Source: Hormiphora californensis (taxonomy: Eukaryota > Animalia > Ctenophora). From it: a stretch of DNA of 64,000 nt. The position numbers were made by a program, and so were the translations under genes. The notes beneath the pieces were generated by a model that was given only the letters and a program-made list of their open reading frames with translations, had not been told where the DNA came from and did no database searches. Shown here one piece after another: positions 12,001 to 63,000 of the stretch. Position 1 is the first letter of the stretch. Each line of letters starts with the position of its first letter. The stretch lies in the NCBI GenBank assembly GCA_020137815.1, contig CM035362.1, forward strand, positions 2,418,001 to 2,482,000, read 5' to 3'.

Positions 12001-15000
12001 CAACACTGCACTGTGATGCCGGTTACTATTGTACACGGGGTGCTACACGTTCCAAACCCACCAGTAGTGACCAGGGCGGACGGTGCCCTGAGGGGAGCTA
12101 CTGCCCTGGGGACAGTCAACCAGGTAATGAGATAGGTTGTTGGTGAGATATGGGGGACCCGGGACAGTCAACCAGGCAATGGGCGAGGGGTGAGATAGGG
12201 GTGATTTGAGTCAACCAGATAGTTATGGGATATCTTAGTTAATTGTAGAAGTTATTTTATCAGCTTAGCGCAGTTCTGTATACCGTTGCAACTGTAGTAC
12301 TAGCGACGCGACGAGCAGATAATTATTATAGCCTGATTCAGCTCCATTAGGGATGAGAATTAGGAGATAAACCCATATGTGGTAGCGTGGTACTTCATAT
12401 ACCTGGTTGTAGTTCCGCTGTACACTCTGTGGGTGGGCCAGGTGACCACTCCGCCACTCCAACTACACACTCCAGCTGCAGCACTGGTGTTGCTAGGGTG
12501 TAACCATGGTGACATGTGATGGTGACAGTATCACCCACCGGTCTCTCACTACTATAATCACCGTCTGAGTTGGTGACAGTGAATCCTGGACACGCTGAAA
12601 TAGACGGAGAGATTATTGTCAGACCAATGACTATGGAACATGGATGTAGAAGGAGTGTGAGGTGCTGAGCACATGGAAAATTAATTGTATATTAAACCTC
12701 GGCCGGCCCCGAGTTAGTTATTCTCACGTTTTGCCCGGTATGAATCTGAAGCGGAATCTGATTTATCGAAAATGATAGTAGTAGGGCTTTTATTCTTCCA
12801 TTTCGTCGGGCAGGTACCACGGGAGGATTGGGAAAACGTATAGTCGATCACCAACACCTGCAACCATATTGAGATGATCATTTGATCGAGATTGAAGCAC
12901 CAGTATCTCTCCAAAATATGAACTCCTTATCCCAACTTTTCGTGAACTCAGGGCCATTTTATGGGAACCATACCAGAAAATTGTTCTGGCCTGGTTGCAT
13001 AGCAACGGTTAATACCCCATAGCAACGGTTAATACCCCATATCAACGGTTAATACCCCATAGCAACGGTTACCTTGTTACAGTGAACAGTCAGTTTGGTT
13101 CCCCTGTACCCTATACTCCAAACTAAGTTTCCAGTAGCACATCCTGATAGTTGCGTCCATTGATTCGTACAATAATCGAGGAAGAACTCCAAACCATTGG
13201 TAGAACTGAATCTGAAGTATTGAAGGAGGGAGGTTGCATGTGTCTATTATCTATATGACATGTTCATATTAAATCGAGAAATTAAAAAAACTAGTTACAC
13301 TTACACAGTCCGATTTACCGGTAAATTGATCTGTCTAGTCAAACCTCCTTTTAACGGTAGATTGAGGTTTGACTGGACTACATACCTTATTCTGAGAGCT
13401 CCTGCAGTATCAGTAACCGGTGTAACAACTATCAGGTGGTTACTTTTAGGACCGCTGTTAGTTGAGATTTGTAGTGGGGCATTCTTTATGTTAAAAGGAA
13501 TGGTCTCTGTTTTCTTCACTGATAACCAATCTAAAGTAGGGAGGTGCTGCATGAGGCAATGTACAAAAGTTTCTGATTCTCTAATAAGCGGTAGCCCTTA
13601 GCCAAGATCTGACATCATTGACCCTTTCTGTGGATCTGTTGCATTGTCTGATTCTTACCGATTGTCACCACTACTCCTGGTTGAAGGATAGCAAAAACTA
13701 ACAAAATATATTTGGACATCATCCACGAATTTAAACGGTCGAGTTAGAATGCTCTCCTTGTATAAAGGAACTGTTGAAAATATCACTTTGTTCCTCCTTT
13801 TCTCGTATAACATGTGCGGACCAGTTAAAAAGATAATCGGTACAGCGTTTTCTTAGATCATCATCATCATCATTTACACACTTATATCCTCCAGATGAAG
13901 ATATAGGTAGTTGAGAAGAGTTCATTGGGCGTGGGAAGGTCAAATTGATATCAACTGCCAGAAGAGTTTTATAACATGCACAACACGTGATACATGAAGT
14001 GTTTTTTAAGATGTTGCACTTCATGTAGACTCTACAATTGTAGAGTTAGACAGCTAGCAGGAAACGCAGAGAGTCAGCTATATAACCAGCTCCCATATAT
14101 TTGGTAATATTGGTAATAACACTCACCCCCACTCTCCTTTAGTTGAGTGCCCGGTGGGAACGTTTAACAAGTTGAGTGGTCAGAAGACAGTTGATGACTG
14201 TGCTGAGTGCAGTGCTGGGTACTACTGTAATGTGGAGGGTGAGTACTATTGCTATGGTTACACACTTTTATAGCATTGATCGTTGCCATGGTAACACAGT
14301 ACCAACTAACTCATATTCCCCTACAGGGAAACAGCGAGTGGAGTCAGTTGATGCATGCCCTGAGGGTTATTTCTGTCCTGAGGGTACAGCTGATTATACC
14401 GACAATCCTTGTTCACCCGGTAAGATTTTGGTCGTTTCCATGTCACACAATTACTCTAATGCCCATTGACTCCGTAGTACTGCCTACCGCTAACAGGTCT
14501 ACTCACTGACCCTCAGGCCACTATTGTCCTACCCCTAACCCCCACTCACCCCACCCCAGGTCCCTATATATTCCTACCTCTAACACTCAACCACCTAACA
14601 CCCACACACCCCGCCACCAGGCCACTATCTTCCTACCTCTAACAGCCACCCACCCCACCCCCAGGTCACTGTTGTTATTTTCTACCTCTAACACCCACTC
14701 ACTCACCCACAGGCCACTATTGTTATTTTCTACCTCTAACCCCCACCCACCCCACCCCAGGTCACTATTGTTATTTTCTACCTCTAACCCCCATTCACCC
14801 CACCCCAGGTCACTATTGTTATTTTCTATCTCTAACACCCACCACCTAACACCCACTCACCCACCCCAGGTCACTATTGTCCTACTATTTATGTAACACC
14901 CACCCACCCTACACCAGGCCACTATTTTTCTACCTGATTTAACACCCACTCACCCCACCACCAGGCCACTATTGTCCAAAACAAAGTTCCGAGGAGAAAG

Positions 15001-60000: not shown

Positions 60001-63000
60001 AACCACTGGATGGCAACAAGGGCTCACCTATACAGGTAACACACATGGGATAACTCGTTAACCATTGCATTACATTATTATTTTTGGTCAAGTACAACCC
60101 CTTGCTATTTACGTAGCCAGGACACCATATTAACTAAGCTACAATAGCTATAGTAACTAGGTTACCATAGTTACGACATGTTATTCTCCAGGTATCTATG
60201 CTGGAAGAGGAGATACTAGCCCGTGGAATGTACTGGAGAAGACAGAGATCAAGGGAACAGGATGTCATAGGGACTCTCCTGAAACTGAACAACATCATTC
60301 TCGGTTAGTAAACACTCATCTCGGTTAGTAAACACTCATCTCGGTTGAAACCCCAATCAGAATTCATAAGTGGTCAAAAGATTCCCCCTCCAGATGCCAT
60401 ACCTAGATAGGGTAAATCTACATTTCCCACTCCCCCATATATTCATCCCCTCCCCCCCCCCCCCCAGATGCCCTCCCGGAAACACCAGAAGAGCTCACAG
60501 AACTAGAGCGTGACGTCACGGATCTCCTCACGTCAATCACGCGTGATACTGACGTCATCACAGACTCTCTCCACAAGGAAACCAAGAGGAGGGGGGATGT
60601 TGGGGCCATGTTTGCCCAGCAACTTCCTCCTGTGGCGGTTGCCATGGTAACGGAGTGTGATGAGGAGGAGACGAGGAGAGAGGCGGTGGTTCAACAGATA
60701 TACAGTAGGGTACCTGAGGTAATTGAGGATTTGAGGTTCCATATATATTATATATTGAGGTGTAAGCGCTCCGTCTATATTGACATTCCGTCGATAGGAG
60801 CCAGCCGGGATAGTTTCTTTATATGCATTGTATATATAGTTTTTTATCCTTTTTCAAATCAAATCAAATATGTTGGTTAGGCGATTTATAGCGGCACCTT
60901 GTAACTGAGACTCCGAGAACGGCATTATCATTATCAGGAACCGACCAAATCAGGAAATACTGGTCCCTGATTGGCTGATAACCAGTCACGTGACCTAAAT
61001 AACGAGTTCTTATTGGTTGTTTACTTGTTTCGATCGGTTCCTGTCCAACACATTCCATACAACCCCCACCAGGTGATAGAGAGACACATGAAGAAGGTAG
61101 GTGTGGAGTTGGGTAAATTCCTGGACCGATGCCAAAGGAACCCAAATGGGCTTGCAGCCGCCAAGGAGAAACATGAACAAATGACGGAACGACTCCAGAG
61201 TGACATACGGACTCAACTTCAAAACAGGTATAAGTAGTAATTTTGGGGTTTTGATATATTGCGTCTCCTCTACAATTTCTCTGTTGATAATTTCCCTCTC
61301 ACCTAACTTCACCTCTCACATCACCCCTCCCCCAGGCTGTGCTCGATGGACGAATCACTAAGCTCGCTGGAGTACATTCGAGAGAGGGCAGAGCTGTGTG
61401 GAGTTGAGGCAAAGACTTGGCTAGTGGGCAAGGATGGTCTACACTGGAATTCATCCATTCAGGGTTAGTTAGGATCTGCATATATCTCTTTCCCTCTTTC
61501 TCATGCGTCTCCCTCTCCTCCCCCTCTCTTCTCTCTTCCCCTCACCCCTCTCTCTCCAGGCATGTTTGGGGATCTACCAGCCAGTACAGGATCACACAGA
61601 GAGCTCACCCCCCTCTCTCTCCCTCTCTATCTATCTATCTCTCTCCTCACCCTCTCCTTCTTTCTCTCCCATCACCCTCACCCCTCACTCTCTCTCTCCA
61701 GGCATGTTTGGGGATCTACCAGCCAGTACAGGATCACACAGAGAGCTCATCCCCCTCTCTCTCCCTCTCTATCTCTCTATCTCTCCCATCACCCTTATCC
61801 TCTCCTCTCTCTCTCCCCTCTTTCTCTCCCATCACCCTCACCTCAGTGACACCTCACCCTCTCCCTCCAGGCATGTTTGGGGATCTACTCTATCTCCCTC
61901 CCCTCTCCCCTCTCTTCCCCTCACCCTCTCCTTTCTCTCTCCAGGCATGTTTGGGGATCTACCAGCCAGTACAGGATCACACAGAGAACTCACCCCCCTC
62001 TCTCTCCCTCTCTATCTATCTATCTCTCTCCTCCCCCTCTCTCTTCCCCTCTCCCCTCCCCTCTTTCTCTCCCATCACCCTCACCTCAGTGACACCTCAC
62101 CCTCTCCCTCCAGGCATGTTTGGGGATCTACTCTATCTCCCTCCCCTCTCCCCTCTCTTCCCCTCACCCTCTCCTTTCTCTCTCCAGGCATGTTTGGGGA
62201 TCTACCAGCCAGTACAGGATCACACAGAGAGCTCATCCCCCTCTCTCTCTCTCCCTCTATCTATCTATCTCTCTCCTCACCCCTCACCCTCACCCTCTCC
62301 TTTCTCTCTCCAGGCATGTTTGGGGATCTACCAGCCAGTACAGGATCACACAGAGAGCTCATCCCCCTCTCTCTCCCTCTTTCTCTCCCATCACCCTCAC
62401 CCCTCACCCTCTTTCTCTCCCATCACCCTCTCCTCTCTCTCTCTCCAGGCATGTTTGGGGATCTACCAGCCAGTACAGGATCACACAGAGAGCTCATCCC
62501 CCTCTCTCTCCCTCTTTCTCTCCCATCACCCTCACCCCTCACCCTCTTTCTCTCCCATCACCCTCTCCTCTCTCTCTCTCCAGGCATGTTTGGGGATCTA
62601 CCAGCCAGTACAGGATCACACAGAGAGCTCATCCCCCTGATTGAGAAGCTGATTGAACTGCTGAAGTCTGGCGGTGGTAGGAATACCCTCCTAACCGCAA
62701 TTACAGGTAAACATATATATGACCATATTTGGTCATACAATTGTAAGACCATATGTGGGCAGGAAGTAACTGGTAATACTCCAACTACAGGTGGTACAAA
62801 GACAACTCTGACAAGCACGGAGAGAGCGGTACGGCAGCCGGCATTCCTTGCGCCAGCTGTAGCCCCAGCACCTTCCAAAATCCGGCTGGTTCTACCCGGA
62901 ATTCCAGAGGAAGAAGAAGAGGAGGAGGATAATAAGGGTAAGTGGTAGAACAGTACCACATACCTAATTACAGCCAGGAAAACAGACGTTTTTTGTCAAG

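What the first reader, a model, noticed from the sequence alone, without database searches (positions are those of the whole stretch)
14510..62637. Intronic minisatellites are repeatedly tandem copies of the splice junction itself (decoy splice-site arrays)
Seen: at least 15 junctions are tandemly amplified together with a piece of the adjoining exon. Acceptor arrays, where the real site is the LAST copy: 14510-14972 (about 10), 24950-25095, 38545-38670, 41575-41690, 48210-48312, 59435-59938 (about 15), 61545-62637 (9), and 19680-19760 in a nested gene. Donor arrays, where the real site is the FIRST copy: 20702-20850, 27232-27395, 42663-42750, 49892-50152 (about 7), 50279-50452, 51448/51723, 55205-55738 (12), 60296-60345. 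The units are unrelated to each other, so each array arose locally. Inference: either a mutational process focuses tandem duplication on exon-intron borders, or junction-spanning duplications are the only exon-touching ones that selection tolerates. In both cases the spliceosome must choose one site out of 10-15 near-identical ones, and the arrays are ready substrates for intron gain, splice sliding or isoform variation.
Basis: partly seen in the sequence, partly recalled or inferred. Interest (0 to 1): 0.8.

Follow-up and report, generated by a model that had tools for sequence, protein, structure and literature searches.

The report
Splice-junction mirage repeats in giant gene
In one giant, intron-rich animal gene, 18 of 282 exon-intron borders are copied 2 to 15 times into the neighbouring intron, a repeat type already described in lancelets ('mirages') and several human genes; they are likely tolerated by-products of frequent local DNA duplication in short introns, which splicing would skip by using the copy next to the intact exon.

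Summary
The arrays are real. The window holds one + strand gene (142 exons, 141 GT-AG introns); 18 of its 282 junctions (9 acceptors, 9 donors), plus one in a nested gene, are locally duplicated. The copies are not chance (14 of 280 junctions match their own intron, 0.0 expected from other introns), and 72 of 76 candidate decoys keep AG/GT. They are barely enriched: because introns are short, random placement predicts 13.8 junction-spanning arrays against 16 seen (P 0.27); TRF-only 9.9 against 10. Some subsets show 1.6-fold (P about 0.01). Most decoy use would frameshift or stop (63 of 72). No intron-gain footprint. No RNA covered the gene, so site use is untested. The class is published: amphioxus 'mirages' (PMC3087553, PMC3902484) and human F7, CBS, lamin B2 repeats (PMC1557585). 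This scan already reported the same pattern in other pieces of this genome. Verdict: new member of a known kind. What remains interesting: 8 of the 18 arrays lie in introns under 250 nt, where the published proximity rule would favour the decoy.

The parts
1..63898 (+). Host gene, partial: 142 curated exons (median 121 nt, 62-286), 141 GT-AG introns (median 154 nt; 111 under 250 nt), about 5,900 codons of Cys-rich repeats, a hydrophobic stretch in exons 54187-54627 and a C-terminal region; one frameshift in exon 42505-42668
   Evidence: C-terminal part matches P0001-P0006 and L001-L004
12109..12181 (+).
14501..14977 (+). Acceptor array, unit about 48 bp, ten copies, real site 14965; 8 of 9 decoys carry a CTRAY branch-point-like motif
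19678..19769 (-). Acceptor array, unit 35 bp, three copies, in a nested minus-strand gene; real site 19682
20702..20869 (+). Donor array, unit 42 bp, four copies, real site 20718; all decoys give a stop
24951..25097 (+). Acceptor array, unit 41 bp, four copies, real site 25091, intron 199 nt
27234..27397 (+). Donor array, unit about 41 bp, four copies, real site 27258, intron 187 nt
28215..28352 (+).
38463..38669 (+). Acceptor 38659 with one intact copy at 38553 and one decayed copy
41574..41686 (+). Acceptor 41658 duplicated once with 29 exonic bases, intron 197 nt
42662..42752 (+). 30-bp repeat starting 7 bases inside the exon at donor 42668; the copy lacks GT, so it is not a usable decoy
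48176..48310 (+). Acceptor 48287 duplicated once, unit 65-67 bp, intron 177 nt; a contig of a second sample ends at the last unique 31-mer before the repeat
49892..50152 (+). Donor array, unit 38 bp, real site 49894, two donor-like sites per unit; a contig of run X1 ends at the last unique 31-mer before the repeat
50279..50452 (+). Donor 50325 duplicated once with 49 exonic bases
51448..51736 (+). 14-bp donor copy 275 bp downstream of donor 51455, with a high-copy insert between
55194..55738 (+). Donor array, units 36-54 bp with higher-order periods, twelve copies, real site 55233; all 11 decoys give a stop or frameshift
58330..58453 (+).
59436..59938 (+). Acceptor array, unit 33-39 bp with a 210-bp higher-order period, fifteen copies, real site 59931; all 14 decoys give a stop or frameshift
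60299..60346 (+). Donor 60303 duplicated, unit 20 bp, intron 164 nt
61540..62638 (+). Acceptor array, units 74-169 bp, nine copies, real site 62584; 5 of 8 decoys are in frame and open

Best explanation
These are local tandem duplications of 14-135 bp that cover an exon-intron border, and they likely arise from the same slippage or unequal exchange that fills this gene's introns with unrelated repeats, likely survive because the extra copies land in the intron, and would be skipped because the spliceosome likely takes the site closest across the intact exon (first donor, last acceptor). Shown: the duplications, their intact splice signals, a rate close to random placement in short introns, the absence of wholly exonic arrays, and an open frame when the exon-proximal site is used. 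Inferred: the mutational mechanism; amplification from 2 to 7-15 copies by unequal exchange (higher-order periods); site choice from the exon side; removal of rare mis-spliced products by nonsense-mediated decay. They are junk that splicing tolerates, not a regulatory device.
For: 51 of 141 introns carry some local repeat and 44 of 62 main-gene-intron arrays are purely intronic, so duplication is common without junctions. Geometric null: 16 against 13.8 in the 129 short introns (P 0.27), 18 against 17.7 conditional on own intron (P 0.52), TRF-only 10 against 9.9 and 11 against 14.2. Wholly exonic arrays 0 against about 30 expected. 9 acceptor and 9 donor arrays. 63 of 72 strong decoys would frameshift or stop, yet the frame is open over about 5,900 codons but for one frameshift and 8 of 10 listed exonic differences in public runs are synonymous, so the gene is under purifying selection and the decoys must be mostly silent (inference). 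Relatives align without an insertion across the modelled joins at 55233 (P0004, 85% over 92 residues; L002-L004) and 59931 (L004). In clean tandem units the exon share is under half in 10 of 12 (P 0.02, post hoc), as expected if copies with long exon pieces are selected against. Published parallels are silent or nearly so: amphioxus (PMC3087553; PMC3902484), human F7 (PMC1557585).
Against: Enrichment appears under other nulls: 18 against 10.3 over all intron bases (P 0.008), 13 against 7.8 for units of 30 bp or more in short introns (P 0.008), 16 against 10.0 when 18 arrays of dispersed satellite families or inside mobile elements are dropped (P 0.013); these are post hoc among 21 tests. Site use was not observed: no RNA covers the gene. 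8 of 18 arrays lie in introns under 250 nt, where PMC9225289 (passages) reports preference for the intron-proximal site, which here is the decoy. One gene only; array classes and unit lengths were curated by hand.
Confidence: 0.68

Rival explanations
1. Duplication is mutationally focused on exon-intron borders (for example by breaks at polymerase pause sites, R-loops or nucleosome edges), and selection then trims the copies with long exon pieces.
For: 1.55-1.7-fold excess in several subsets; junction units are longer than intronic ones (median 39.5 against 19.5 bp, partly geometric); if copies with long exon shares are purged, no net depletion implies extra input; one copy of a 109-bp element sits 10 bp into an intron and duplicates a donor.
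Against: The uncurated TRF test and the tests with all arrays show no excess; the significant subsets are post hoc; the exon part of a copy pair decays on one side only, which prolongs detection (inference).
Confidence: 0.2
2. The arrays are functional: they supply alternative sites for isoform variation, tune expression through nonsense-mediated decay, or are intermediates of intron gain.
For: 72 of 76 decoys keep AG/GT; 5 of 8 decoys of the 61540 array are in frame and open; three array-bearing introns (55234, 58265, 59333) have no counterpart in the relatives fetched; human CBS and 6-16 use the nearest pseudo-sites (PMC1557585).
Against: Only 9 of 72 strong decoys are open. Direct repeats at intron ends average 3.05 bp against 3.06 in phase-matched permutations and are not longer in array introns (2.8 against 3.1). 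Relatives also lack introns that carry no array. Young neutral copies keep their AG/GT too.
Confidence: 0.07
3. The arrays, or at least their copy numbers, are assembly artefacts.
For: The window has signs of imperfect assembly: a garbled homopolymer joint near 5410-5520 between two 89-93% identical copies of a multi-exon block, and a frameshift in exon 42505. No read or contig laid spans a whole array.
Against: Copies differ in ordered ways (84-100% matches, higher-order periods of 143, 210 and 243 bp). Two of the 32 listed contigs end exactly at the last unique 31-mer before an array (49927 in X1; 48205 in X5, a second sample), as expected if the repeat is in those runs. Other pieces of the genome are reported to show the same pattern (unchecked).
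Confidence: 0.05

Closest known systems
Amphioxus 'mirage' minisatellites (Adh3, globins BflGb6 and BflGb9, troponin C, PGBD5); PMC3087553 passages and section 16 read, PMC3902484 passages
   Same: [quoted passage not shown]
   Different: Different animal lineage (likely a comb jelly, not established here); 18 cases in one gene rather than one or two per gene; silence in splicing and length polymorphism were reported there and could not be shown here.
Human junction-spanning VNTRs: F7 IVS7 (37 bp), CBS IVS13, lamin B2, PDGF intron 4, interferon-inducible 6-16; PMC1557585 abstract and passages
   Same: First monomer spans the donor, followed by 4-25 identical pseudo-sites; the most upstream site is used, as inferred here.
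   Different: Those examples are donor arrays in scattered genes; here half are acceptor arrays, and many host introns are short.
Intron gain by tandem genomic duplication of an AGGT-bearing exon segment; PMC3443670 passages, PMC4974935 search listing only
   Same: Same raw event, a short intragenic tandem duplication that carries splice signals.
   Different: There the duplication lies inside an exon and makes a new intron; here it covers an existing border, and intron ends show no duplication footprint.
Exon-centric versus intron-centric proximity rule; PMC9225289 passages
   Same: First-donor and last-acceptor use is the exon-centric rule.
   Different: That paper finds the intron-centric rule in introns under about 250 nt, a size class that holds 8 of the 18 arrays and 111 of 141 introns here.

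Membership tests
Mirage / junction-spanning minisatellite | Tandem or near-tandem repeat whose unit spans an exon-intron boundary | tested here: met
   18 of 282 junctions; chance control 14 against 0.0; 51448 is not tandem
Mirage / junction-spanning minisatellite | Unit length about 10-160 bp, both 5' and 3' boundaries affected | tested here: met
   units 14-135 bp; 9 donors, 9 acceptors
Mirage / junction-spanning minisatellite | Many but not all copies keep AG/GT | tested here: met
   72 of 76 candidate sites
Mirage / junction-spanning minisatellite | Normal splicing is not disturbed (only the authentic site is used) | not testable with these tools
   no RNA holder listed; the one guessed RNA run did not cover the exons; only indirect support from frame, relatives and synonymous differences
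Mirage / junction-spanning minisatellite | Copy number differs between haplotypes | tested here: inconclusive
   only short contigs were available; none listed spans an array
Intron gained by tandem genomic duplication | Intron ends repeat the flanking exon ends beyond the splice consensus | tested here: not met
   mean boundary repeat 3.05 against 3.06 permuted; best 12-mer identities 7 and 9 of 12; array introns not longer
Alternative-splicing or isoform array | Inner sites keep the frame and are used | tested here: not met
   9 of 72 strong decoys in frame and open; use itself untested
Copies archiving other alleles (lead from earlier scan notes) | Decoy-versus-exon differences are mostly synonymous | tested here: inconclusive
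   6 synonymous of 14 distinct changes, 27% expected, P 0.15; at 48293 the decoy base equals the base of other alleles

The most novel reading that the evidence does not exclude
This animal picks splice sites from the exon side even in 100-250-nt introns, against the published short-intron proximity rule, and that makes border duplications nearly free. Borders would then be duplicated at or above the random rate (up to about 1.6-fold), giving thousands of natural arrays of identical competing donors and acceptors genome-wide: a ready-made experiment on exon definition in an early-branching animal, and a steady supply for splice-site sliding.
Probability: 0.3. Interest if true: 0.6.

Novelty: new member of a known kind. 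Interest (0 to 1): 0.3.

Why it matters
The repeat class is known, so the find does not add a mechanism. Its value is density: about 6% of junctions in this gene carry identical competing sites, half of them acceptors, 8 of 18 in introns under 250 nt. With RNA-seq this would directly test whether splice sites are chosen across the exon or across the intron in a short-intron genome. In practice the arrays also mislead gene prediction: the self-trained model called false mini-exons inside five of them.

Tried and rejected
No whole genome is held, so no genome-wide enrichment test. No RNA holder listed; the guessed RNA run X7 gave only short repeat matches: no evidence either way on expression or site use. 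Reads were laid only on 44001-62000, 4 of the 7 listed runs, all contigs; arrays before 44001 and the distal part of the 61540 array were not checked against runs. Three contigs end at 59438 near the start of an array, but the 31-mer test does not explain it: inconclusive. The naive shuffle of whole arrays over the window gives 24.9 overlaps against 18 seen; rejected as a null because it ignores selection on exons. Intron birth by duplication: no footprint, although intron 55234 alone has a 7-bp boundary repeat. Synonymous bias of decoys: not significant. A palindromic motif as driver: CCATGG in 4 of 18 junction arrays and 6 of the 44 others, too few to decide. Branch point as discriminator: CTRAY in 38 of 141 real acceptors and 16 of 40 decoys, so it does not single out the real site. 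Exon size as discriminator: use of the nearest decoy would give exons at the 60th-100th percentile of real sizes, mostly within range. Taxon: Pfam named none of the four host-gene exon pieces scanned, the Atlas gave no hit at 0.9, P0001's cluster is unnamed, a search with the nested DBF zinc-finger ORF found nothing; the loci are too distant to compare introns base by base, and TRF found only short repeats in them. Literature: 'mirages + minisatellite + exon + intron' gave 3 papers, 'Pleurobrachia + intron + tandem repeats + splice sites' gave 0, and the top 20 of 405 showed no genome-wide survey of junction-spanning repeats (listing only); the library lacks most subscription papers. No supplements were read; those of PMC3087553 and PMC3902484 hold the mirage alignments.
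Full report
What the window is. A self-trained gene model, corrected by hand against the sequence, gives one + strand gene across the whole window: 142 exons (median 121 nt, range 62-286) and 141 introns, all GT-AG (median 154 nt, minimum 75), with an open frame of about 5,900 codons apart from one frameshift in exon 42505-42668. 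One copy of a duplicated multi-exon block (5327-7241) was left out of the model. The protein is a long run of Cys-rich repeats, a hydrophobic stretch and a C-terminal region with unnamed relatives: P0001-P0006 (48-85% identity) and L001-L004 (28-59%). The likeness of the repeats to GCC2/GCC3 (ephrin-receptor-like) repeats is recalled; Pfam did not name the four host-gene exon pieces scanned. Large introns hold minus-strand genes and mobile elements. The animal is likely a comb jelly: that rests on my recall and on earlier scan notes, and nested genes, many tandem repeats and high heterozygosity are described for one comb jelly (PMC8527503, passages); no call of mine established the taxon. No genome is held.

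The observation. An unbiased search for local direct repeats (spacing 9-450 bp, low complexity masked) gave 63 arrays after dropping exon-exon paralogous matches and the duplicated block and splitting two merged clusters. 18 span a junction of the host gene (9 acceptors, 9 donors), 1 spans an acceptor of a nested gene, 44 are intronic. The matches are true local copies: 14 of 280 junctions score 12 or more against their own intron and 0.0 are expected from other introns of like size. Only five arrays have seven or more copies; the 42663 copy has no GT; 51448/51723 is a 14-bp pair around an insert.

Are they in the animal? Seven runs were listed, none on record as RNA; four were laid on 44001-62000, all contigs. 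None of the 32 listed pieces spans an array. Two end exactly at the last unique 31-mer before an array (49927 in X1, which may be the assembly's own sample; 48205 in X5, another sample), which is what a repeat does to such contigs, though a neighbouring variant could too. With the ordered divergence and higher-order periods of the copies, this makes artefact unlikely; copy numbers remain unverified.

Are they enriched? The fair null places one unit at random where selection could tolerate it: inside an intron or across one border, with arrays collapsed. In the 129 introns under 500 nt, 16 of 46 arrays span a junction against 13.8 expected (P 0.27); conditional on the own intron, 18 of 62 against 17.7 (P 0.52). 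With TRF output alone and no hand curation of classes, 10 of 29 against 9.9 and 11 of 40 against 14.2. Against this, the excess is 1.7-fold over all intron bases including element-filled large introns (P 0.008), 13 of 17 against 7.8 for units of 30 bp or more (P 0.008), and 16 of 31 against 10.0 after dropping 18 arrays of dispersed satellite families or inside elements (P 0.013). Wholly exonic arrays number 0 against about 30. So the pattern is mostly geometry plus selection: with introns of about 140 nt and units of about 40 nt, a third or more of tolerated duplications must cross a border. The firm result is the lack of depletion, for donors and acceptors alike.

What the spliceosome faces. 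With matrices trained on the gene's own sites, 72 of 76 candidate decoys keep AG/GT and 51 score at or above the real site (the 76 include 7 strong donor-like sites inside arrays that are not junction copies and 2 spurious rows). Strong silent sites are not unique to arrays: 112 short introns without junction arrays hold 9 donors and 10 acceptors that score at or above their own real site. 63 of the 72 would frameshift or stop; 5 of the 9 open ones are in the CT-rich 61540 array. Neither a branch-point motif nor exon size singles out the real site. The gene looks alive: 8 of the 10 exonic differences among the 40 listed rows are synonymous (642 rows were not shown). If 16 junctions each lost a large share to decoys little protein would be made, so the decoys are likely mostly silent (inference). 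Relatives align without insertion across the joins at 55233 and 59931, supporting first-donor and last-acceptor use as the conserved product.

Mechanism. Shown: local duplication is frequent (51 of 141 introns), border-spanning copies persist at about the random rate, exonic ones do not. Inferred: slippage or unequal exchange makes the second copy and amplifies it; the site nearest across the exon wins, so the original mRNA is restored; leakage goes to nonsense-mediated decay. The exon share of clean tandem units is under half in 10 of 12 (P 0.02, post hoc), which fits decoys being silent when they lack enough exon sequence (that truncated exon pieces weaken duplicated sites is recalled from classic globin experiments, not read here). 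There is no sign that this gene's introns were born this way: boundary repeats average 3.05 bp against 3.06 permuted, although relatives lack several of these introns, with and without arrays.

What is known. Amphioxus 'mirages' are the same structure, with the same proposed link to intron gain and reported silence in RT-PCR (PMC3087553, section 16; PMC3902484, passages); I found these before opening the scan's earlier notes. Human F7, CBS, lamin B2, PDGF and 6-16 carry donor-spanning minisatellites, and F7 minigenes show use of the most upstream site (PMC1557585, abstract and passages). Earlier notes of this scan report the same pattern in several other pieces of this genome (52 of 67 notes fit the look-up words, 8 shown; unchecked AI notes, not support). 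I found no paper on this in comb jellies, within a library that lacks most subscription papers.

What stays open. PMC9225289 (passages) reports that in introns under about 250 nt the site nearest across the intron is preferred. Eight of the 18 arrays lie in such introns; in five of them (28130, 41461, 48110, 58265, 60304) the intron-proximal decoy is intact and would leave an intron of 110-165 nt, well within the normal range. If RNA shows these decoys silent, this animal chooses from the exon side in short introns. That is testable and is the main reason the score is not lower.

Verdict: observation confirmed, interpretation partly supported, new member of a known kind, interest 0.3.

Noticed in passing
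window 1976-3639 and 5514-7181, joint near 5410-5520: A block of six exons plus the start of a seventh is present twice at 89-93% identity, with a garbled homopolymer-rich joint; one intron differs completely between the copies and only the first copy carries a long insert. Likely two haplotypes joined by the assembly, or a real segmental duplication.
   Followed up: partly
window 42505-42668: Single frameshift inside an exon of the host gene; both frames give sensible Cys-repeat peptide on either side. Sequencing error or a null allele.
   Followed up: partly
window 53914-54038: A 109-bp element with inverted ends sits 10 bp into an intron and is flanked by an 8-bp repeat (CAGGTAAT) that copies the donor at 53918, making a decoy donor by another route. 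Six more copies lie at 16625 (partial), 19189, 38063, 52577, 55776 and 60935, not next to donors.
   Followed up: partly
window 7714, 24408, 28134, 47445, 50964: A dispersed 22-36-bp intronic satellite family built on near-palindromes (CCATATATGG, CACGTG) starts 5-25 bp after donors in five introns; the CCA.AT.TGG motif has 0 exonic hits and 0.67 per kb elsewhere, but over short introns the motifs are only mildly 5' biased.
   Followed up: partly
window 60380-60480 and 49476-49520: Two further decayed acceptor copies below the search threshold (near 60394 and 49486), seen by eye.
   Followed up: no
window 28937-29749, minus strand: Nested ORF of 270 codons with a DBF zinc finger (PF07535, E 2e-9); a homolog search found nothing.
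   Followed up: partly
window 19300-20060, 12200-13900, 33000-37000, 43000-45000, minus strand: Nested antisense genes in the large introns; the one at 19300-20060 appears to start with a signal-peptide-like stretch.
   Followed up: no
window 3873-4919: 348-codon ORF with coiled-coil character inside an intron, no Pfam hit; resembles a retrotransposon ORF1 by recall only.
   Followed up: partly
window 16600-18360: A roughly 1.7-kb element made of two long inverted arms fills most of intron 16505-18467 (read by eye).
   Followed up: no
L004 3679-5502 against window 56561-60035: The relative in L004 encodes two stretches of about 190 and 280 residues without introns where the window's gene has ten, so this lineage gained or the other lost many introns.
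   Followed up: partly
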